A stretch of DNA of 64,000 nt from Acidobacteriota bacterium (GTDB lineage: Bacteria; Acidobacteriota; UBA6911; RPQK01; JAJDTT01). Numbering within the stretch: position 1 is the stretch's first letter; every line of letters begins with the position of its first letter. Below, one piece after another: positions 12,980 through 21,150 of the stretch. Location: the NCBI GenBank assembly GCA_965209055.1, contig OZ242374.1:192001-256000 (forward strand), read 5' to 3'. A model generated the notes under the pieces. The model saw nothing but the letters and a program-made list of their open reading frames with translations. It was not told the origin of the DNA and ran no database searches. The position numbers and the translations under genes were made by a program.

Positions 12980-12981
12980 GT

Positions 12982-13062
12982 GCTTCCCCACCGGCCCATG
13001 CCCGGCGAAATGCCGGTAGAAAAAGGAAAGGAGCGGCGGTTTCCTAACCGCCGAACTGGAGC
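12982..13062 (+). repeat. 81-bp direct repeat copy 1 (contains a REP)
   Basis: 78/81 identical to 16220-16300. Confidence 0.9.
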
Positions 13063-13069
13063 CCGCTCC

Positions 13070-14509
13070 CTACGGCGCGCCAAATCGAAACGAATAAAGA
13101 TTCGAGTCCCGAAGCACGAACCGGAGGCGCACCACCTGTCCCTCCAGTTCGCTCAGATCCTCCCTCTCCCCCCAATTCACAACCCGATCCAACTCATCGC
13201 CGTAGATCTCTTCGCTGTTCTCCAGATTGAAGCCCAGCACCGGACGGGAAAAGTGGTTGAGCACCTCCACCCGGACCGATCCCGTGACCGATGTGGAGTA
13301 GTTGATCCGCAGCCGGCTCCCCTTGAATTTCAACGGCCGCGTCGTGAGCTCTCCTCCCAGATCGGGGGCATGAACCGAGATGAACCCGTCCTGCCGCAGC
13401 GTCACCCGCCGGATGTGGGCGTGGGGCGTCCGGTAGTTGTGGGTCATGTACATGGACAGCTCTCCCGGTGCGGTCCGGACCAGGCCCGAACCGAAGGACA
13501 TGGCGCGCTCATGCCAGTTGTTCTCGTCGAATCCGGGACGGATCCAGGCCTCGCGAAAGGTCCGTTGCCAGCGGAGTCCGTCGCGGCTGCTGAGCAGGGC
13601 GATGTCCGAGAGGCCGGGGAAGGGCCAGCCCTCGGCTCCCCGGTCCAGGATGAAGCGCATGGGGAACATGAGGTAGACGTTTCGCGCCCAGGGATAGGGG
13701 ATGGCGGCGCTGCTGTAGAACTGTTCCCGGGGTTGGGTCCCGAAGGGGATCTCCACCCATTCGGGGCCGTCCCAGGTGCGGAAGTCGGGGGAGGTGAAAC
13801 GGCGAATGGTCCGGTTGGCCTCTCCGCTGGTTCCCGAAGCGTCCAGCTGTTTCTCCGGGGTCGATCCCCACCAGCCTCGCTTGTAGATGACGTACCGGGA
13901 CTGCCAGGGGTCCCAGAACGCGGCATGCGGACCGTCGTTGACCTGATCCTGGAGCCTCCGGATCAGGGGATCGGGCTGGATCGGTTTCCACCGGATCCCG
14001 TCCGCCGAGACCAGTCCGTGGATGTCCCGGGTCTGGACGATGGCCTTGTACCTCTCCCCCTCCGGGACCCCGGGGTTCGGGTCCTTGAAGACGCACATGT
14101 TGATCCCCTGGTTCCCGGGAGTGGGCCAGACCAGGTTGTTGTCCGTGGAGCCTTGCGACTCCACCAGCCCCAACGAGGGCCGCTCCCAACCGACCCCGTC
14201 CTTGCTCTCGGCGTAGGCCGTCTGGGCCACGCCGTCATGGTTGCCCTGGGAGACCCGGTACCACATCCGGAAACGGTCGCCGTCCCGGATCACGATGGGA
14301 TGCCAGGAGGTATCCCCCTCCCAGGGCTTCTCGTATCGCAGCACCTCTTCCCGCAGAACCGGCCGATGCAGCTCGAACTCGGCGCCGCGCATCTCGCCGA
14401 TGAGACCCCGGTCCAGAAAGAGCTGTCGGTCGGACCCGATATTGACGAAGGACTGTCCACCCAGTACGGGCAGCGAGGCCAGCAGGCAAGCGAATAGAAC
14501 TCTTTTCAT
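13070..14509 (-). CDS. Secreted glycoside-hydrolase-like beta-propeller protein
   Basis: MKRVLFACLL signal peptide after GGAG RBS; IGSDRQLFLD, SKDGVGW, SADGIRW, LRQDGFIS...LYSFRF. Confidence 0.82.
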   Translation of the reverse strand: MKRVLFACLLASLPVLGGQSFVNIGSDRQLFLDRGLIGEMRGAEFELHRPVLREEVLRYEKPWEGDTSWHPIVIRDGDRFRMWYRVSQGNHDGVAQTAYAESKDGVGWERPSLGLVESQGSTDNNLVWPTPGNQGINMCVFKDPNPGVPEGERYKAIVQTRDIHGLVSADGIRWKPIQPDPLIRRLQDQVNDGPHAAFWDPWQSRYVIYKRGWWGSTPEKQLDASGTSGEANRTIRRFTSPDFRTWDGPEWVEIPFGTQPREQFYSSAAIPYPWARNVYLMFPMRFILDRGAEGWPFPGLSDIALLSSRDGLRWQRTFREAWIRPGFDENNWHERAMSFGSGLVRTAPGELSMYMTHNYRTPHAHIRRVTLRQDGFISVHAPDLGGELTTRPLKFKGSRLRINYSTSVTGSVRVEVLNHFSRPVLGFNLENSEEIYGDELDRVVNWGEREDLSELEGQVVRLRFVLRDSNLYSFRFGAP

Positions 14510-14636
14510 ATCTCCTCCCGTGGGCAGGATAGGTTCGGGACGACAGCCGGTCAACGAACCCCTGCGCTCTGGCTCTCCGCAGCGCGGGGGACGGATCGAC
14601 CTTCGTTTGCATAAAGGAGGACCGATTGGTAGAGTA

Positions 14637-14686
14637 AATCACTGGAAAATCACCATAATGGTCAACTTAATCACCCCATAATCACC
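14637..14686. promoter_or_regulatory. Array of AATCAC direct repeats (OmpR/PhoB-type box candidate)
   Basis: AATCAC at 14637, 14648, 14669, 14680 (spacing 11-21-11); same pattern at 44343-44392. Confidence 0.55.
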
Positions 14687-15085
14687 GTTTATATGTAAAA
14701 ATACTATCCTTTTTTCAGCGCATTTCGGAGACCGGCGCCGGACGCGCCTAGCCACGGGGAAACGTGGTATTGGGGGTCAGGAAGAACATGGATAAAACAT
14801 TCCAGGTCATTCAGTTCCGGAAAAACTTCGGGTGGATTGCAATTCCACGGCAGGCGCCCGGGACGCCGCGTCCGCCGGTGAATTCCTTGATCGTGAGGAG
14901 ATAATCTCATTTTGCCCAAGGCTTCATTTTCAGCTCTGATCAAAAAAGTTACTATCCTTTGTTCAGATATTTCACCTGAATCCACGAGTCCATCTTTTCT
15001 TGCCCTCCCTGATTCCTCCCTGGAGGTGGCGGACACGGCTAATGGGCTGAACGGATGTTCCCGATTGGGGAGAAATGGAAGAGTT

Positions 15086-16099
15086 ATGCCCAAACCGCAA
15101 ACTGCTGATGCCTGTCCAACCGACCGCCATTCCGGGATCAAAGCAGATGCAGCCGCCGTCGCGGCTTCGGAATCTTCCTTGGCCGATGCTCCCGGGAGAG
15201 TCGTCGAGCTTGCCGCCGCGTCCCTGTCGAAGAACACGCGCCGCGCCTATCGAGGCGCCTTGCAGCGGTTGCAGCACTATCTGGACAAACACGATGCCAG
15301 CCTCACGGATGGTTGGCTGGCCAGCTACCTCGCCTCTCTGTTTCATCGGGGCCGCTCCCCCTCCTCAGCCAGCATGGTCGTGGCAGCCGTCCGCTTTCAG
15401 GCCAGGACCACCGGCGCGCCTTCACCCGTGGGGCCGGCCACCGATCGGGTCCTGGCCGGGTTCCGGCGCGAGGGACGCCGGAGGGGCCGGGGGCAAGTCG
15501 AAGGGATCAGTTGGGAGATGGCCGACGTCATCGCCGCCCTCATCACTGCCGTCGAGACGGGCTCTCTTGCGGCCTTCCGTGACGCCGCCCTGATCTCCAT
15601 CATGTCTGACGCCATGCTTCGGGTTTCGGAAGTCGCCGCGCTTCAATGCGCCGACATCCGGGAGGACGATGGAGGCGCCGGCTTGCTCACGATTCACAGT
15701 TCCAAGACCGACCAGGAGGGGGAAGGGACGATCCTGTTTCTTGGTGCGCTCACCATGAGGCGGATCCGCGCCTGGATCGTCGCCGCCGGCTTCAATTCAG
15801 GACCCCTGTTTCGGCCGGTGCGGGTCGGAGGCATCGTGGAGGATGGGGCCCTCAGTTCCCGAAGCATCCGGAACGTCATCCAGAAGAGGGCGAAGCAGGC
15901 CGGCATCGACGGTGGGCGGATCTCCGGGCACTCGCTCCGGGTCGGGTCGGCTCAGTCCCTGGCCCTTCGGGGAGCCTCCCTGGTGGAGCTCCAACAGGCC
16001 GGACGCTGGACCTCGCCGCACATGCCGGGCCGGTATGTCCGGGGGCAACTTGCCTCCCGTGGACCCATGGCCCGGATCCGGTACGGGAAGGGGTCCTGA
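15086..16099 (+). CDS. Cre-like tyrosine recombinase
   Basis: SKNTRRAY N-domain; catalytic set MLRVSE (R), SKTDQEG (K), GHSLRVG (HxxR), GRWTS (W), RYVR (Y); 337 aa from ATG 15086 (ORF track extends to 14912). Confidence 0.9.
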   Translation: MPKPQTADACPTDRHSGIKADAAAVAASESSLADAPGRVVELAAASLSKNTRRAYRGALQRLQHYLDKHDASLTDGWLASYLASLFHRGRSPSSASMVVAAVRFQARTTGAPSPVGPATDRVLAGFRREGRRRGRGQVEGISWEMADVIAALITAVETGSLAAFRDAALISIMSDAMLRVSEVAALQCADIREDDGGAGLLTIHSSKTDQEGEGTILFLGALTMRRIRAWIVAAGFNSGPLFRPVRVGGIVEDGALSSRSIRNVIQKRAKQAGIDGGRISGHSLRVGSAQSLALRGASLVELQQAGRWTSPHMPGRYVRGQLASRGPMARIRYGKGS

Positions 16100-16219
16100 A
16101 CGAATCGCCCGAACCAGCCTGAGCCGGGAGGTCATCAGCGCCGCCGGCATGACTGCGAAGCAGCCGGGAGGGGTCCGGCGCATGGGAGCGATGGTGCCCC
16201 GAGTCCTGTGATCCCAGGA

Positions 16220-16300
16220 GCTTCCCCACCGGCCCATGTCCGGCGAAATGCCGGTAGAAAAAGGATGGGAGCGGCGGTTTCCTAACCGCCGAACTGGAGC
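16220..16300 (+). repeat. 81-bp direct repeat copy 2
   Basis: 78/81 identical to 12982-13062. Confidence 0.9.
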
Positions 16301-16374
16301 GGCGATTTCCAATCGCCGAACTCCTGACTGACAAACTTGGCGACAAAGATTGGGCGATTGGAAATCGCCCCTCC
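16268..16374. repeat. Tandem REPs plus REPIN
   Basis: GGAGCGGCGGTTTCCTAACCGCCG, GGAGCGGCGATTTCCAATCGCCG ... GGGCGATTGGAAATCGCCCCTCC; the spacer TGACAAACTTGGCGAC recurs in reverse orientation in the REPIN at about 26276-26353. Confidence 0.8.
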
Positions 16375-16504
16375 TTTTTCTTAGAAGACGGGAAGACCGG
16401 CCTGGTTCCGGCCGAACGCGACACAGGCTCCGTCCCCATACTCGAAGCTGGCGAACCAGAGCAACTCCGGTCCGCATCTTCATCCCCTCAGGAACCGAAC
16501 GGCC

Positions 16505-16687
16505 TCAATCCCTCGGGTTGCTGACGATACGCCGGCCCGGGTCGGGGGGCTCCTGCTGCTCGAGGAGGCGGCTGGCAATCTCGACGGCGGACAGATCCAC
16601 CTTGAGATTGCGAATTTGCAGAGCCTTCAGGGCGCTGCCCTTCCGGCCCCAGGGACGGCCGTCGCTGCGGATTCTATGCGGTTTCAT
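16505..16687 (-). CDS. Small hypothetical protein (60 aa)
   Basis: Good RBS (GAGGAG-caat-ATG); divergent from the surface-protein gene. Confidence 0.4.
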   Translation of the reverse strand: MKPHRIRSDGRPWGRKGSALKALQIRNLKVDLSAVEIASRLLEQQEPPDPGRRIVSNPRD

Positions 16688-16896
16688 ATTGCTCCTCTCG
16701 ATTGGCCGGATGGCCTGCTGTCAATCCAATCAGCCATTCCGGAACTACCCACCGAATCATCTCTGTAGCTCGTCGACGGTGGATCGGGCTGCGCCGAGCG
16801 GCATGCCCGGCGTCGCCCGTCGACCCTGTTGACGGGCCCGGCTTGGCAATAGCGTTCTCGAAACGCCTCACCAGAAAAAACGCTGCCATAAACGCC

Positions 16897-16939
16897 CAAA
16901 AAAAGTGACTTGCGCGCCGTATTGGGAGCTTCCGATAAC
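16897..16939 (+). promoter_or_regulatory. Putative sigma70 promoter for the 17045 gene, overlapping the left arm of lox-like site 1
   Basis: A-tract, then TTGCGC (16910-16915), 18 bp, GATAAC (16934-16939); weak match to consensus. Confidence 0.35.
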
Positions 16940-16954
16940 GGGAATTATCGGAAG
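16929..16954 (+). other. lox-like recombination site 1 (10-6-10)
   Basis: CTTCCGATAA-CGGGAA-TTATCGGAAG: perfect inverted arms around an asymmetric 6-bp spacer. Confidence 0.75.
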
Positions 16955-17044
16955 TCGGGAGAGGAGCACTGCCTATGGGGGAGGCGTGAGGATTCTGGTC
17001 TCAACAGGTTTTTAGTTTCAACCAAACAAGCAAGGAGTTACACA

Positions 17045-18904
17045 ATGAAATCGATTTTCAAAATTCTGGTTTTGGGCGTCGTCCCGATCCTCGCGCTCAC
17101 TGCGGTCGTGGATCAGGGTCTCGCCGCCGACAAGGGATCGCAGTTGATCTTCCACAGCAACATGTACCACAAGAACTTCATCTCCGTTGCCAACGCCAAC
17201 GATGGCAAGGCGGTTACGTTGCTGACTCAGTACTACAACGACGAGATGGCAATGGTTCTCTGGTACCTGAGAGTCATTCCCGGCGGCGGAAACCTTTTGG
17301 TCGACCCCTTCGACCATTCGATTCCGGGCACGGCAGAACAAGATGATGACGGTGAGGACATTGCGGGATCGGAAACGAACGTCAGCGATATTCTCGGCGA
17401 ACTCGCCGCAATGAGCCACAAGGATGAGGACGGTACGCAGCACCACGGAGTCAATTCCGGTCGTTTTCTGATCGTCATTACGGCGGTGGGGGCAAACACG
17501 AAAGAAGATCCGGATACTACTGCCACCGAACTCAATGGCGTGACCACGGCGAACATCCTCTTTCCAGGCTTCCTGGCTGCGGACATGCATGCTGTCGACA
17601 ACATCGACAATTGCGGAAATCTTTCGATCGACGGCATGGGGCTCGGGCTCACCCGCCACCCCACGGATAAAGCCTGGGACTGTCGTAAGGATGATCCCAC
17701 CACTACGGGAGTCAATGAAGCCGATGTGACTACCAAAAACGTCGGTGCTTTGTCTGTATCCAACGCCGAACCCGTCGCCTTCAACCACCTTACCGGGCAT
17801 TTCACGGAGGCGCTGGTTGGGACCGCCGAGGGGGGTTCCGATCAGACCGCATCCTGGGGTGGCGCGCCAGTGATCCGGCCAGCTGTTACCAATGCGGCCA
17901 ACGCGGCGATGATAGGCGTCGACTACCAGACTCTGAACGGCATAGACAACGGAGGGACTGCGAACTACTACCATTCCTCTGGCGCTGCTACCGCAATATC
18001 GGTTGATGGCACCGGTCGTCTGGCAGAAAAGGATGCCGGTGGTCAGGGTATAGTTGATATTACGACGGGAGAAGATCGTGCCGACTTTACAGCTCCCTCA
18101 CGTATCGCTGAGCAACCGGACGCTGTCACCAACAGGGGGCTAGCCGGTGTAGGCAATATGAACGCTGCAACGCCACCAGCCCAGCTCGAACACGGGGCCT
18201 TGGTCCTGCCGGCTCTCCACGGAGGAGGAATGGAGACCACACAGGTCGCGATCTTGTTGTCAGTAGCCGACGATTATGGCGACCCGAGAAGAAACGCGGG
18301 TGGCGATTACAAGTTGATCCCCGCCATGACCGGGTACAAGGTGACCGTGCAGGACAATATGGGGGATGTCTTGCCGGATCCTGCTGCCGAGGACGATCCC
18401 GTATTTGGTGGCACGGACTCTGCCGATGCTCCGGCGGGTGTCAGTATCATCGTCAATGGAATCGGTGTCATGGTCAATGCCAACCTTGGCAAGTGCACTG
18501 GAACCATGATCGACGGCGCTTGGACCCTCGACCAATTGACGAGCCTCGTTCCCACGGCGGCTTCGGGCGCCAAGACCTTTGGTGGTGTTGGTGCCATGCT
18601 GGATCCGATGATGAATGCCACTCCCGGCTTGATCAAGTTCGTGCGTACCTCAATGACGTGCAAGATGAACTACGGCGACGGCGACGGCACGACTCTTACA
18701 GGGATTGAGGAGGCGGATGGTGTCCCCACAAAGAGTGAGCGGACCTACACGGCCGGCACGTTGATCAGGGAACAGGCAGACTCGAATCGTACATTCGTTA
18801 CGACGGGACAAGCCGTTTTGAAGTTCATCACGCCGGATTCGACTTTCGGGGCCTCATGGTCACTGAAGTCTCCCGCGGCTACCGCAGCCGACTTCACCCC
18901 CTAG
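17045..18904 (+). CDS. Large secreted acidic Ala/Gly/Thr/Asp-rich protein, candidate S-layer or cell-surface protein
   Basis: AAGGAG RBS, Sec signal peptide MKSIFKILVLGVVPILALTAVV, 619 aa, codon usage distinct from neighbours (many T-ending codons), own terminator; function inferred. Confidence 0.75.
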   Translation: MKSIFKILVLGVVPILALTAVVDQGLAADKGSQLIFHSNMYHKNFISVANANDGKAVTLLTQYYNDEMAMVLWYLRVIPGGGNLLVDPFDHSIPGTAEQDDDGEDIAGSETNVSDILGELAAMSHKDEDGTQHHGVNSGRFLIVITAVGANTKEDPDTTATELNGVTTANILFPGFLAADMHAVDNIDNCGNLSIDGMGLGLTRHPTDKAWDCRKDDPTTTGVNEADVTTKNVGALSVSNAEPVAFNHLTGHFTEALVGTAEGGSDQTASWGGAPVIRPAVTNAANAAMIGVDYQTLNGIDNGGTANYYHSSGAATAISVDGTGRLAEKDAGGQGIVDITTGEDRADFTAPSRIAEQPDAVTNRGLAGVGNMNAATPPAQLEHGALVLPALHGGGMETTQVAILLSVADDYGDPRRNAGGDYKLIPAMTGYKVTVQDNMGDVLPDPAAEDDPVFGGTDSADAPAGVSIIVNGIGVMVNANLGKCTGTMIDGAWTLDQLTSLVPTAASGAKTFGGVGAMLDPMMNATPGLIKFVRTSMTCKMNYGDGDGTTLTGIEEADGVPTKSERTYTAGTLIREQADSNRTFVTTGQAVLKFITPDSTFGASWSLKSPAATAADFTP

Positions 18905-18975
18905 GCTGATTCAGCACATCCAAGGACCGTCGCTCTCCTCAACCAAGTGAGATCGACGGATCGGGTGGAAACGAA

Positions 18976-19012
18976 AAGGGGGAGGCCTGCTATCAGGTCT
19001 CCCCCTTCTTTA
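18976..19012 (+). terminator. Rho-independent terminator
   Basis: AAGGGGGAGGCCTG-ctat-CAGGTCTCCCCCTT followed by CTTTA. Confidence 0.85.
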
Positions 19013-19212
19013 TTCACCATGCTGCAACGAATTCCAGAATGCAGGGGCAGATTTTCAACCATCCTTTCTACCCCCACGTTCTGGAGAAACCCGATGTGGA
19101 GCCCTATCCCGAGCTCTTCGTTACCGGACAGTGACGACGCGCAAGCTCTCTCGGGTTTCCCTGTGGCACCCCTGAAGGGGCCGTATGAATCGGCCCCGCC
19201 GCAGGCCTCATC

Positions 19213-19611
19213 ATGACATTGCCTGAACTCTTCCAAACCTTTCCCGACGAGAAAGCCGCCGAGCAATGGCTCGCCGCCATCCGCTGGCGGGGCCAACTCT
19301 GGTGTCCGGCCTGCGGCTCCGACCGCTGGTACCACCACCGGACCCGGGATCCGCGCCAGGTGGCCATGCGCTACCGGTGCAAGGATTGCAAGGGGTACTT
19401 CAGTGTCCGCAAGGGGACCCACCTGGGGCAGAACAAGACCAAGCTCAGGACCTGGGTATTGGCGATTCACCTCGTCTCCTCCGATATGTCCCTGAGGACA
19501 TCCATGATGACCTTGCATGAGGGATTGGGAATCTCCCGCGTCACGGCCTGGAGGATGGCGAAGAAGATCCGGGAAGCCCTGGCGGCTCCCGGGGGGCCGC
19601 CGCACGGGTGA
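19213..19611 (+). pseudogene. IS1595-family transposase N-terminal fragment (Zn ribbon plus HTH, no DDE domain)
   Basis: LFQTFPDEKAAEQWL..RW, CPAC...CKDC..FSVRKGT, LGISRVTAWRMAKKIREA; stops before the catalytic domain. Confidence 0.75.
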
Positions 19612-19698
19612 CGACGGCGTGTCCCGTGCTTCCAAGGGCGAATTGATGACTTTCGAGAAGGGATTTCGGGTCCGGATGCGTGCCCTGTTTTTACCTCG

Positions 19699-19724
19699 GT
19701 TCCGATATTTCCCGTTAACAGAAC
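19699..19724 (-). other. lox-like recombination site 2, inverted relative to site 1
   Basis: GTTCCGATAT-TTCCCG-TTAACAGAAC; 21/26 identical to the reverse complement of site 1, spacer 6/6. Confidence 0.65.
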
Positions 19725-19876
19725 CTTCGGTCCAAATTTTCACGCCGTATGAAATCTAAGGATGCACGAACCCGCTTCGGGTTGCAAGTTTCGTGCAGGT
19801 AGCCGTCCTCAGGGGCTCGTCCGGCAGCCGCAGTGTATCCTAAACGGCATCCTTACTGGAACTTGGGGAGATTGCC

Positions 19877-20425
19877 ATGAATCGAGGACTGCTGTCACTG
19901 ATCGAAGCCGAGTACCAGCGCTACAAGGCTCTCGGCGAGGGAACGTTCCGCCAGTTGAGCGCCGAGGAGCTGGTGACGGACTCCGCGGGGGCCAACTCCA
20001 TTGCGATGATCGTCTGGCACGTCGCCGGCAATCTGGAATCCAGGTTTACGGATTTTTTGACCACGGACGGCGAGAAACCCTGGCGGCAGCGGGATTCCGA
20101 ATTCGAGCCCCGGACGCCATCGCGCGACGAGATCCAGGAGAAGTGGGACCGGGGGTGGCGGGTGCTCTTCGGCTCGTTGCAAGAGCTCACGGATGACGAT
20201 CTGAGCCGTCCCGTGACCATCCGGGGGGTGTCCATGGGCGCCGATGAGGCGCTGCTGCGCTCCGTGGCGCATGCCGCTTATCATGTCGGACAGATCGTCT
20301 ACCTGGGCAAGTGCTTCCGGGGGGATTCCTGGGAATCGCTGAGCATTCCGCCGGGAAAGTCCGAGGAATACAATGCCAATCCGGTATTCGAGAAAGCCGG
20401 CGGGCACGCGAAGAGGTTGTCGTAG
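19877..20425 (+). CDS. DUF1572/DinB-like protein
   Basis: NSIAMIVWHVAGNLESRFTDFLTTDGEKPWRQRDSEF, HAAYHVGQIVY. Confidence 0.88.
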   Translation: MNRGLLSLIEAEYQRYKALGEGTFRQLSAEELVTDSAGANSIAMIVWHVAGNLESRFTDFLTTDGEKPWRQRDSEFEPRTPSRDEIQEKWDRGWRVLFGSLQELTDDDLSRPVTIRGVSMGADEALLRSVAHAAYHVGQIVYLGKCFRGDSWESLSIPPGKSEEYNANPVFEKAGGHAKRLS

Positions 20426-20487
20426 ACCGGGGTATCCGGCTTTTTGGGAGTGCGGGAACAACAGGGGCAGGAAGGGAGAGGGCAATA

Positions 20488-21150
20488 ATGGACTTTGATG
20501 TCGAAGGAAACCTTGGAGCTGCGGCGCGTTCCGTGTCTTCGCTGGAACGCGACGGACGGCCGGCTCGCGCGGTTACTCTTGCCCGGAGCTACGCGGCGAC
20601 GGCTGCGGACCTTTGGGACGCTGTGGCCAACCCGGAGCGGATTCCACGCTGGTTCCTGCCGGTCAGCGGCGAGCTGGAAGTTGGGGGCCGCTACCAGTTG
20701 GAAGGCAACGCAGGCGGCGTGATCACGGCTTGTGAACCTCCAGTCCATTTCGCGGTGACCTGGGAGTTCGGCGGCGACGTCAGTTGGGTGGAGGCACGCG
20801 TTTCGGACGACGGAGCCGGCCGCGCGCGGCTGACGCTGACGCACATCCAGCATCTCTCGGACCACTGGGACACGTACGGGGCGGGCGCGGTCGGCGTGGG
20901 GTGGGAGTGTGGTCTTTTGGGGCTCGCGATCCATCTCGCGGACCCGGACGAGCCGATGCCTGACCCGGCCGCGTTTGCCGTTTCTCCGGACGGCAAGGCG
21001 TTCATCACGGGCAGCAGCGACGGGTGGGAGCAGGCGGCGGTCGCCTTCGGAACAGACCCCGGCGCCGCCCGTTCCAGGGCAGAGCACACGACCGCGTTTT
21101 ACACTGGTGAACCGCCCGAGTCTGCGGGTTGTGAAAACTCGGGGAATTAG
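20488..21150 (+). CDS. SRPBCC/AHSA1 domain protein
   Basis: DLWDAVANPERIPRWFLPVSG, YGAGAVGVGW. Confidence 0.85.
   Translation: MDFDVEGNLGAAARSVSSLERDGRPARAVTLARSYAATAADLWDAVANPERIPRWFLPVSGELEVGGRYQLEGNAGGVITACEPPVHFAVTWEFGGDVSWVEARVSDDGAGRARLTLTHIQHLSDHWDTYGAGAVGVGWECGLLGLAIHLADPDEPMPDPAAFAVSPDGKAFITGSSDGWEQAAVAFGTDPGAARSRAEHTTAFYTGEPPESAGCENSGN

What the first reader, a model, noticed from the sequence alone, without database searches (positions are those of the whole stretch)
15086..19724. Candidate Cre/lox-like whole-gene inversion switch controlling a surface-layer-like gene
Seen: an intact Cre-like recombinase (R-K-HxxR-W-Y) lies about 0.8 kb from site 1, CTTCCGATAA-CGGGAA-TTATCGGAAG (16929-16954). 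Site 2, GTTCCGATAT-TTCCCG-TTAACAGAAC (19699-19724), matches the reverse complement of site 1 at 21/26 positions with an identical 6-bp spacer. Between them are the RBS, CDS and terminator of a 619-aa secreted protein. A putative promoter (A-tract, TTGCGC, GATAAC) lies essentially outside the crossover, overlapping the left arm. Established: tyrosine recombinases exchange strands across a 6-8 bp spacer that must match, and inverted sites give inversion. Inference: flipping the 2.8-kb segment turns the gene away from its promoter (ON/OFF phase variation by inverting the gene rather than the promoter), and recombinase bound at site 1 could also repress it. I do not know of a described Cre-like switch of this kind in Acidobacteriota, but cannot search to confirm.
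Basis: partly seen in the sequence, partly recalled or inferred. Interest (0 to 1): 0.88.

Follow-up and report, generated by a model that had tools for sequence, protein, structure and literature searches.

The report
Cre-like recombinase flips a secreted-protein gene
A Cre-like recombinase sits beside a 2.8-kb DNA segment, carrying a fast-evolving secreted-protein gene, that is found in both orientations in nature, so it is a real genetic flip-switch, although what the flip turns on or off is not yet known.

Summary
Site 2 is the best match to the reverse complement of site 1 in the 6.08-Mb genome. The recombinase's only solved-structure relatives are Cre.

The inversion is real. Two contigs of another sponge metagenome and a related MAG contig, L014, carry the segment flipped.

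Seven orthologous loci keep both sites. The 6-bp cores co-vary: CGGGAA/TTCCCG in five loci, CCGAAA/TTTCGG in two. Ten more distant homologues have ~170-bp invertible promoter segments, each with its own complementary core. In all, 17 of 48 within-locus site pairs are inverted and 0 are direct.

Not supported:
- "Surface-layer-like" has no backing; the protein has no family or fold match.

It is a Zn-ribbon gene that, together with the small ORF left of site 1, forms a single gene in a non-invertible paralogous locus.

Verdict: a genuine invertible segment and a new variant of a known kind. ON/OFF control is inferred, not shown.

The parts
15034..15055 (+). Degenerate 'site 0', a remnant of the lox-like site that precedes the recombinase gene in relatives
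   Evidence: Only 9 of 16 arm positions match in the window. The same position scores 12-16 of 16 in L014-L021, about 55 bp upstream of the start codon. It marks the left end of the unit that is duplicated within two genomes. No partner site with a matching core was found.
15086..16099 (+). Cre-like tyrosine recombinase, 337 aa, intact
   Evidence: Pfam Phage_integrase 3.4e-14 plus an N-terminal SAM-like domain. PDB phmmer gave 17/17 hits to Cre or Tre, best 1.6e-19. R179, K207, H282, R285, W308 and Y317 are present. Xer models score far below their cut-offs.
16219..16385 (.). 167-bp MITE-like repeat inserted between the recombinase gene and orf60; not part of the switch
   Evidence: 179 BLAST HSPs in the genome. 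Word depth is 500-1500 in three runs. The repeat is absent from the X3 strain (joint 'skips 167') and from L014.
16505..16687 (-). orf60, a small basic ORF outside the segment and divergent from the 619-aa gene in this orientation
   Evidence: Conserved at 80-100% aa identity in all 8 related loci L014-L021. It is homologous to the C-terminal part of a single 186-aa ORF in the paralogous locus C1:1849699-1850259.
16929..16954 (.). Site 1, a lox-like recombination site (perfect 10-6-10 palindrome, core CGGGAA)
   Evidence: The arms are identical in 7 of 7 same-state orthologous loci. It is the left breakpoint of the natural inversion, 16935|16936, with 9 ambiguous letters.
16955..17044 (+). Conserved 90-bp leader of the 619-aa gene, inside the segment
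   Evidence: Strongly conserved in the 8 loci aligned. The last 35 bp are shared with the paralog at C1:1847211. No conserved sigma-70-like promoter was found in it.
17045..18904 (+). g619, a 619-aa secreted, mostly beta-strand protein of unknown family; fast-evolving
   Evidence: N-terminal signal-peptide-like helix. AF2 gave pLDDT 67.1 and pTM 0.76, mostly strands. No Pfam or NCBIfam family, and 0 PDB fold hits at E<=0.001. 193 homologues, all unnamed or 'hypothetical' among the 120 listed. Orthologues are 40-78% identical, against 72-95% for the neighbouring genes.
18976..19007 (+). Intrinsic terminator after g619
   Evidence: 14-pair stem (9 G-C) followed by a T-rich tail.
19213..19611 (+). 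znf, a 132-aa IS1595-type Zn-ribbon protein without a transposase catalytic domain, inside the segment
   Evidence: Pfam Zn_ribbon_IS1595 1.5e-7. The NCBIfam IS1595 transposase model matches only positions 2-52 of 215. Conserved at 83-95% in 8 loci. Fused with an orf60 homologue in the paralogous locus.
19699..19724 (.). Site 2, a lox-like site in inverted orientation (core TTCCCG, asymmetric arms)
   Evidence: The arm deviations are conserved in the orthologues. It is the right breakpoint of the natural inversion, 19717|19718.
19725..19845 (.). Conserved ~120-145-bp right flank that travels with the unit; function unknown
   Evidence: Conserved in 8 loci, including the second copies L016 and L021 where the next gene differs. 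A nested-hairpin structure is predicted with 4 compensatory pairs. No Rfam match.

Best explanation
This is a genuine site-specific invertible DNA segment. The Cre-like tyrosine recombinase (15086-16099) binds the two inverted lox-like sites and exchanges strands within their matching 6-bp cores. That flips the 2.8-kb segment 16936-19717, which carries the secreted-protein gene g619 and the Zn-ribbon gene znf.

There are two heritable states:
- State W (this window): g619 and znf point the same way as the recombinase gene, and orf60 is divergent across site 1.
- State I (flipped): g619, znf and orf60 lie in one line on the opposite strand, as in the non-invertible paralogous locus. The conserved right flank then lies upstream of g619.

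Shown: the sites, the enzyme class, both states in nature with breakpoints inside the cores, and co-variation of the cores.

Inferred: that the neighbouring recombinase is the catalyst, that flipping recurs, and that it changes expression of g619 and/or couples znf with orf60. By analogy with the promoter-flipping relatives, this would be phase variation of a secreted protein. Which state is ON is unknown.
For: (1) Natural inverted alleles.
- In run X3, one 5757-nt contig joins 16935 to 19717 on opposite strands.
- A 2190-nt contig in the same run joins 16936 (minus) to 19718.
- L014 carries the hybrid site CTTCCGATAACGGGAAATATCGGAAC, with znf and g619 reversed.
- Contigs of X19 bridge both sites in the window's orientation.

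(2) Conservation and co-variation.
- All 7 other orthologous loci (L015-L021, recombinase 72-90% identical) have both sites 2.7-3.2 kb apart.
- The cores are CGGGAA/TTCCCG in 5 loci and CCGAAA/TTTCGG in 2.

(3) Family behaviour.
- In 79 loci with homologues, 17 of 48 within-locus site pairs have perfectly complementary cores and 0 have identical ones.
- Between-locus controls gave 2 + 2 of 3727 pairs.
- There are 12 distinct cores.
- Ten of these pairs bound ~170-bp segments holding an invariant TTGACA -35 (10/10) and a T[AG]TA[CT]T -10 in 9 of 10, next to a divergent lipoprotein gene.

(4) Modules in one genome use different cores: L015/L021, L016/L018 and L030/L031/L032.

(5) The enzyme is Cre-like with a full catalytic set, and the sites align with loxP in register.

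(6) g619 is far more divergent than its neighbours. Its middle is replaced in the X3 strain.
Against: - No flipped junction was listed for the probable source sample (X19, X21). Those are contigs, which drop rare variants, so within-population switching is neither shown nor excluded.
- L014 shares 14 of 23 X3 variants, so the two flipped records may reflect a single inversion in one lineage.
- Eight of the ten observed alleles are in state W.
- No promoter could be placed.
- The 90-bp leader inside the segment is the best-conserved non-coding stretch. A promoter inside the segment cannot be excluded, and it would make g619 expression independent of orientation.
- No RNA run holds the stretch.
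- The bare palindrome is common in unrelated metagenomes, and only 3 of 80 fetched stretches have a homologue of this recombinase. The arms alone are therefore not diagnostic.
Confidence: 0.72

Rival explanations
1. Evolutionary relic. The sites belong to a mobile or integrated recombinase unit, and the segment was flipped once or rarely as a by-product. There is no regulated or recurrent switching and no effect on expression.
For: - The recombinase-to-site-2 unit is duplicated as a block within two genomes. Its left end is at 'site 0' and its right end about 145 bp past site 2.
- The locus lies in a lower-GC stretch.
- Only one lineage (L014 and X3, sharing 14/23 variants) is seen flipped.
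- No promoter logic could be found.
Against: - Two sites with asymmetric arms and exactly complementary cores are kept in 8 of 8 same-state loci, at recombinase divergence down to 72%.
- Both cores changed together at two positions in two loci.
- Neutral relics would decay, as site 0 has in the window.
- The wider family shows 10 further inverted pairs with co-varying cores around a consensus promoter.
Confidence: 0.17
2. Exchangeable cassette. The inverted sites act like the pdif sites of Acinetobacter dif modules, or like inverted-lox cassette exchange. Their main role would be to swap g619 alleles between genomes, and inversion would be a side reaction.
For: - The inner site sequence, ATAA-N6-TTAT with a 6-bp core, is dif-like (dif consensus recalled, not tested).
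- g619 is only 40-78% identical between loci whose flanks are 72-95% identical.
- The middle of g619 is replaced in the X3 strain.
- dif modules flanked by inverted Xer sites are described (PMC13141974, PMC9947245; search listing and start of abstract only).
Against: - znf lies in the same cassette yet is 83-95% conserved, so divergence is specific to g619 rather than to the cassette.
- The cargo is the same gene pair in 9 of 9 loci.
- The duplicated unit is bounded by site 0 and the right flank, not by sites 1 and 2.
- XerC and XerD models score 45-52 bits against cut-offs of about 330.
Confidence: 0.07
3. The palindromes are operators of a DNA-binding regulator, and the inversion arose by homologous or replication-associated recombination between short inverted repeats, without the recombinase.
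For: - The same palindrome, with other cores, is widespread in metagenomes. In 77 of 80 fetched stretches there is no homologue of this recombinase nearby.
- Site 1 lies in a divergent intergenic region, where operators typically lie.
Against: - The identical stretch shared by the two sites is only 9 nt, too short for RecA-type exchange (established knowledge).
- An operator model does not predict complementary co-variation of the spacer between two sites 2.8 kb apart, nor 17 inverted against 0 direct pairs.
- The breakpoints fall in the core, as expected for tyrosine recombinases.
Confidence: 0.04

Closest known systems
Cre/loxP of phage P1
   Same: - Cre is the closest solved protein (E 1.6e-19, 17/17 hits), with about 31% identity over the C-terminal half by tblastn.
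- The catalytic motifs are the same.
- The target is a palindrome with an asymmetric centre.
- Site 1 aligns in register with the annotated loxP, sharing 8/13 + 8/13 arm positions.
- It keeps the G-A-T-A motif next to the spacer that is reported for active Cre-type sites (PMC10250229, passages read).
   Different: - The palindromic arms are 10 bp, not 13.
- The co-varying centre is 6 bp. It corresponds to the inner 6 of loxP's 8; that Cre cuts 6 bp apart is recalled.
- The sites are chromosomal and paired in inverted orientation around cargo.
- P1 has one site, used for cyclisation and dimer resolution.
- Identity to Cre is low.
Promoter invertons run by tyrosine recombinases (FimB/FimE-fimS; Bacteroides invertible promoters, e.g. 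the phase-variable S-layer of B. thetaiotaomicron, PMC4611039, listing and abstract start only)
   Same: - An adjacent tyrosine recombinase, short inverted repeats, and surface or secreted products.
- The more distant homologues here (L025, L028-L035, L041) have this design: a consensus promoter within a ~170-bp segment, next to a lipoprotein gene.
   Different: In the window, a 2.8-kb segment with two complete genes flips, not a promoter, and no promoter could be placed. The recombinase is of the Cre type. FimB/FimE details are recalled.
Mycoplasma gene-inversion systems (Vpma/Xer1 of M. agalactiae, PMC2268961, abstract read; vsa/HvsR of M. pulmonis, recalled)
   Same: An adjacent tyrosine recombinase inverts DNA carrying whole surface-protein genes, so that their relation to fixed flanking sequence changes.
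   Different: - Those loci hold several alternative genes competing for one expression site. Here a single gene has two states.
- The phylum, the protein family and the site sequence all differ.
PsrA (CreX) and the hsdS inversions of Streptococcus pneumoniae (PMC7096588, PMC4948785; listing and abstract start only)
   Same: A Cre-family tyrosine recombinase encoded next to the DNA it inverts; gene-sized inversions.
   Different: There the inversions shuffle hsdS target-recognition domains through longer repeats. Here two short lox-like sites flip intact genes.
Acinetobacter dif modules (PMC13141974, PMC9947245; listing and abstract start only)
   Same: Gene-sized modules bounded by inverted sites with 6-bp centres.
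   Different: - Those modules use the host XerC/XerD, sit on plasmids and carry varied cargo.
- Here there is a dedicated Cre-like enzyme, constant cargo, and Xer models are not met.

Membership tests
Tyrosine recombinases of the Cre type | Catalytic set R-K-H-x-x-R-(H/W)-Y in a Phage_integrase catalytic domain | tested here: met
   PF00589 3.4e-14. R179, K207, H282, R285, W308 and Y317 lie in motifs aligned to Cre's. The Cre residue numbering is recalled.
Tyrosine recombinases of the Cre type | Closer to Cre than to Xer or integrase groups | tested here: met
   17 of 17 PDB hits at E<=0.001 are Cre or Cre-derived. XerA, XerD and XerC models score 45-66 bits against cut-offs of 220-335. No tree was built.
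Tyrosine recombinases of the Cre type | 34-bp target with 13-bp inverted arms and an 8-bp spacer | tested here: inconclusive
   The site aligns in register with loxP, but only the inner 10 arm positions are palindromic and only 6 central bases co-vary.
Tyrosine recombinases of the Cre type | Recombination without accessory proteins | not testable with these tools
   Needs an in-vitro or heterologous assay.
Invertible (phase-variable) DNA elements | Inverted recombination sites flanking the segment, with a recombinase nearby | tested here: met
   The recombinase stop is 830 bp from site 1.
Invertible (phase-variable) DNA elements | Both orientations exist, with breakpoints in the repeats | tested here: met
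   X3 contigs show both junctions. L014 carries the hybrid site. This is between strains only.
Invertible (phase-variable) DNA elements | Both orientations within one population (reversible switching) | tested here: inconclusive
   No opposite-strand joint was listed for X19 or X21. Only contigs were available, and contigs drop rare variants.
Invertible (phase-variable) DNA elements | Orientation changes expression | not testable with these tools
   No RNA run holds the stretch. No conserved promoter was found.
Xer/dif and dif modules | Recombinase is XerC/XerD (equivalog models) | tested here: not met
   TIGR02225 scores 52.3 bits against a cut-off of 329.6, and TIGR02224 scores 44.8 against 335.15.
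   No Pfam or NCBIfam hit at E<=0.01. 0 PDB fold matches at E<=0.001. The Atlas neighbours are all 'hypothetical protein'.
IS1595 transposases (znf) | Catalytic DDE domain following the Zn-ribbon | tested here: not met
   Only the Zn-ribbon (PF12760) matches, and the NCBIfam IS1595 model matches positions 2-52 of 215. The protein is 132 aa.

The most novel reading that the evidence does not exclude
A family of Cre-like invertases has spread across several phyla represented by MAGs, many apparently sponge-associated. It forms 'core-coded' orthogonal switches: modules in one genome share arms but carry different 6-bp cores, so they cannot cross-recombine.

Most members flip a consensus promoter next to a lipoprotein gene. 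In one Acidobacteriota clade the design changed to flipping a whole gene pair. The site sits inside what was once a single regulator gene (znf::orf60). The flip therefore toggles between an ancestral-type g619-znf-orf60 line-up and a split state, rewiring a hypervariable secreted protein and its putative DNA-binding partner together.
Probability: 0.35. Interest if true: 0.8.

Novelty: new variant of a known kind. Interest (0 to 1): 0.64.

Why it matters
DNA inversion switches are well studied in gut and pathogenic bacteria. Three full-text searches found no paper describing one in sponge-associated Acidobacteriota, or one run by a Cre-type enzyme there.

If the switch is active, uncultured sponge symbionts vary a fast-evolving secreted protein by flipping. 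That bears on how they cope with phages or with the host.

The family also gives a natural set of at least 12 core variants on near-identical arms, with apparent orthogonality within genomes. It shows two architectures, promoter flip and whole-gene flip, within one recombinase family. Both points are directly testable in E. coli and are relevant to recombinase tool building.

Tried and rejected
TTGCGC matches 3 of 6 -35 positions, and GATAAC lacks the final T. It was not reported by the scan and is not conserved.
- My own search for any positionally conserved sigma-70-like promoter around either site in 8 loci found none shared by two loci. By-eye candidates in the leader, the left flank and the right flank were all dropped for lack of conservation.
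- Orientation census in metagenome contigs. Of the 80 fetched, none had the CGGGAA core and only 3 had a homologue of this recombinase, so no census was possible.
- Weak partner sites for 'single-site' homologues gave 5 inverted against 2 direct at 5-7 arm mismatches, which is not above noise.
- No partner was found for site 0.
- The recombinase paralogue at C1:3007883 (35% identical) has no site within its 3.9-kb locus.
- Function of g619: Pfam, NCBIfam, a PDB fold search and the ESM Atlas gave nothing.
- Rfam on 14500-20500 gave only two sub-threshold miRNA-model matches inside the MITE.
- Run X1 has a 301-nt contig that ends exactly at 19699, at depth about 3. This is too thin to interpret.
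- Run X21 has contigs covering 18978-19738 and 19709-20226, overlapping by 30 letters. The break lies just where site 2 and the flipped right junction first differ (19708). An X3-like minor allele is present at 16998-17014 (depth 14.1 of 62.4). This fits a co-occurring flipped minor strain, but no opposite-strand joint was listed for X21, so I do not count it.
- IS-end and target-duplication explanations were dropped. Site 1 is itself a perfect palindrome and no IS copy flanks the segment.


Full report
OBSERVATION. Reading the window confirms both sites at the stated coordinates.
- Site 1 (16929-16954) is a perfect 10-6-10 palindrome.
- Site 2 (19699-19724) matches its reverse complement at 21 of 26 positions, and the 6-bp centre is exactly complementary (CGGGAA / TTCCCG).
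- The arm pattern with up to 3 mismatches occurs only at these two places in the window, and none of 100 shuffles gave two.
- In the 6.08-Mb genome it occurs at three places, against none for the backwards control.
- A 26-mer scan of the genome ranks site 2 first against rc(site 1). The runner-up (20/26) has another centre and belongs to a different repeat family.
- The half-site alone is at chance level: 17 found, 15.6 expected.

So the pair is real, unique in the genome, and 2.77 kb apart.

THE GENES.
- Recombinase. The ORF 15086-16099 has a Phage_integrase catalytic domain and a SAM-like N-domain. All 17 solved-structure relatives are Cre or engineered Cre. R179, K207, H282, R285, W308 and Y317 sit in motifs aligned with Cre's. 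Xer models are far below threshold.
- g619. The 619-aa gene (17045-18904) has a signal-peptide-like N-terminus and is predicted mostly beta (pLDDT 67, pTM 0.76). It has no Pfam or NCBIfam family, no PDB fold match at E<=0.001 and only 'hypothetical' neighbours in the Atlas. The genome holds about eight paralogous loci. 'Surface-layer-like' is therefore unsupported; 'secreted, fast-evolving, unknown function' is what can be said.
- Other features in the segment. A strong terminator follows g619.
- Left of site 1, on the other strand, lies a 60-aa ORF, orf60 (16505-16687).

THE PARALOGOUS LOCUS. At C1:1847246-1850259 a g619 paralogue is followed by one 186-aa ORF. Its N-terminal part matches znf (64% identity) and its C-terminal part matches orf60 (67%), in one frame without a stop. 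That locus has no recombinase and no sites. The order there (g619, znf, orf60 on one strand) is the order the window would have if the segment between sites 1 and 2 were flipped.

THE FLIPPED STATE EXISTS.
- Contigs of four public runs were laid on 16000-20600.
- In X3, a sponge metagenome of another study with about 95% identity, a 5757-nt contig runs 16000-16935 on the plus strand and continues at 19717 downwards on the minus strand.
- A 2190-nt contig in X3 runs 17275-16936 on the minus strand and continues at 19718-20600.
- Nine letters fit both sides of the joint, so the exchange lies in or next to the core.
- In X19, which holds all sampled words and may be the source sample, contigs bridge both sites in the window's orientation.
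- Independently, L014, a 3.8-kb MAG contig whose recombinase is 95% identical, carries a hybrid site made of the left arm of site 1 and the reverse of the left arm of site 2. There znf and g619 are reversed and orf60 is unchanged.
- L014 shares 14 of 23 X3 variants. The two flipped records belong to one sister lineage and prove at least one inversion, not many.
- A 9-nt identical stretch cannot mislead an assembler that uses words of about 31 (inference).

CONSERVATION AND CO-VARIATION.
- A scan of one genome per species found 423 relatives of the recombinase, and 79 loci were kept.
- The eight closest (L014-L021, 72-95% identity) share the gene order recombinase, orf60 (minus), site, g619, znf, site.
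- Seven are in the window's state, with both sites 2.7-3.2 kb apart.
- Five have CGGGAA/TTCCCG. Two have CCGAAA/TTTCGG, so both sites changed together at two positions.
- Two genomes carry two modules each, one of each core type (L015/L021 and L016/L018).
- The duplicated unit runs from a third site ('site 0', about 55 bp upstream of the recombinase start and degenerate in the window) to about 145 bp beyond site 2.
- g619 is 40-78% identical between these loci. The recombinase, znf, orf60 and the next gene are 72-95% identical.

THE WIDER FAMILY.
- I used relaxed arms (up to 4 mismatches of 16) in all 79 loci (1.11 Mb). This gave 90 sites and 48 within-locus pairs.
- Of these pairs, 17 have perfectly complementary cores and 0 have identical cores.
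- Of 3727 between-locus control pairs, 2 were complementary and 2 identical.
- There are 12 distinct cores.
- Ten of the pairs come from homologues 53-56% identical (L025, L028-L035, L041), labelled Dehalococcoidia, Nitrospinota or just 'bacterium'.
- In these, the sites are 159-179 bp apart, upstream of the recombinase gene.
- They enclose an invariant TTGACA (10/10) and, 17 nt on, a T[AG]TA[CT]T -10 in 9 of 10, ending at the proximal site.
- In all ten the promoter points at the recombinase side, where a hairpin followed by a T-run comes next.
- On the other side lies a divergent gene for a 560-760-aa protein. Four of the seven N-termini printed (L025, L030, L034, L041) show a lipoprotein signal (lipobox LAGC). 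One carries RTX repeats and one carries collagen and PKD repeats.
- Three such modules in one genome (L030-L032) have three different cores.

This is the classical promoter-inverton design. It shows that the family as a whole works on inverted pairs whose cores must match.

SITE ARCHITECTURE. Site 1 was aligned with the annotated loxP of record X03453.1. It falls in the same register, with 8 of 13 positions shared in each arm. It keeps the G-A-T-A motif next to the spacer that a survey of Cre-type sites reported for active sites (PMC10250229, passages). The co-varying 6 bp correspond to the inner six of loxP's eight spacer bases; that Cre cuts 6 bp apart is recalled. Site 2's deviations from the palindrome are conserved in the orthologues, so the asymmetry may matter, for example for bias. 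That is inference.

WHAT THE FLIP DOES.
- This part is not shown.
- My scan found no sigma-70-like site at a shared position around either site, on either strand, in eight loci.
- The best-conserved non-coding stretches are the 90-bp leader inside the segment and the ~140-bp right flank outside it.
- The right flank travels with the unit even where the next gene differs, and it folds into nested hairpins with four compensatory pairs.

Three readings remain:
- (a) A promoter in a flank drives g619 in only one state. By analogy with the small invertons, and with the paralogous locus, the flipped state could be the expressing one, with the right flank upstream of g619 and znf-orf60 in line. The common state W would then be the parked one.
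- (b) The flip mainly couples or uncouples znf and orf60, two halves of one ancestral protein.
- (c) The promoter is inside the segment and the flip is neutral for g619.

I put (a) or (b) together at about 0.5-0.6. No RNA run holds the stretch.

RIVALS.
- A relic of a mobile unit. It fits the block duplication and the single flipped lineage, but not the maintained, co-varying site pairs.
- A dif-module-like exchangeable cassette. It fits the dif-like inner site and the divergence of g619, but znf in the same cassette is conserved, the cargo is constant and the Xer models fail.
- Operators plus homologous recombination. It fits the wide occurrence of the palindrome in unrelated metagenomes, where 77 of 80 fetched stretches lack a homologue. 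It does not fit the co-varying cores or the 9-nt identity.

COMPARISON AND NOVELTY.
- It works like known tyrosine-recombinase inversion switches: fim (recalled), Bacteroides invertons, Mycoplasma Vpma/Xer1 (PMC2268961, abstract) and pneumococcal PsrA.
- The enzyme is of the Cre type.
- It differs in flipping two whole genes between two lox-like sites, in sitting within a split ancestral gene, in the core-coded orthogonality, and in its hosts.
- Searches for such a system in sponge symbionts or Acidobacteriota found nothing.
- A survey of invertons across lineages does not mention Acidobacteria or tyrosine recombinases in its main text (PMC11602134, term search).
- Supplements were closed and may hold relevant lists.

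Verdict: a real invertible segment and a new variant of a known kind. Interest is moderate to high, and the regulatory consequence is still open.

Noticed in passing
L025, L028-L035, L041 (e.g. L031:7558-7747): Ten homologues of the recombinase have a ~170-bp segment between inverted sites with locus-specific complementary cores. It encloses an invariant TTGACA -35 (10/10) and, 17 nt on, a T[AG]TA[CT]T -10 in 9 of 10. In all ten the promoter faces a hairpin+T-run and the recombinase gene, and a divergent lipoprotein-like gene lies on the other side.
   Followed up: partly
window 16219-16385: A 167-bp MITE-like repeat with internal hairpins. It gives 179 BLAST HSPs in the genome and very high word depth in three runs. 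It is absent at this place in the X3 strain and in L014, so it is a recent insertion between the recombinase gene and orf60.
   Followed up: partly
genome C1: 575904, 788152, 1155562, 1677779, 1715906, 1723728, 2831297, 3892124, 4351626, 4354831: A second family of lox-like palindromes (consensus TCCGTTAA-TTTCAG-TTAACGGA), with about 10 copies. All have the same core on the plus strand. Several share ~150 bp of left flank containing another palindrome, and two copies lie 3.2 kb apart in direct orientation. No recombinase was linked to them.
   Followed up: partly
window 19760-19845 and the same place in L015-L021: A conserved nested-hairpin element just outside site 2: a 9-bp outer stem and two inner hairpins, with 4 pairs showing compensatory changes. 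It has no Rfam match and is kept even where the downstream gene differs.
   Followed up: partly
genome C1:1849699-1850259: A single 186-aa ORF that fuses homologues of znf and orf60, downstream of a g619 paralogue (717 aa). It has no recombinase and no sites. This looks like the undivided form of the gene pair.
   Followed up: yes
window 14400-15000: GC drops to 0.47-0.54 just upstream of the recombinase gene, against 0.62-0.70 around it. The whole stretch 14400-20000 is below the local average, which fits acquired DNA.
   Followed up: no
L015:4275-7218: The gene upstream of the recombinase (homologue of window 12980-14497, no Pfam family) has its N-terminal ~110 residues repeated four times in tandem in L015.
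   Followed up: no
genome C1:1091462-1093081: One g619 paralogue is read through an in-frame TAA between its two matched halves, so it may be a broken copy.
   Followed up: no
window 16998-17014 and 20410-20525 in runs X19/X21: The probable source sample holds a minor allele identical to the X3 strain at these positions (depth 14.1 of 62.4 in X21). A second, X3-like strain therefore co-occurs. Its orientation could not be read.
   Followed up: no
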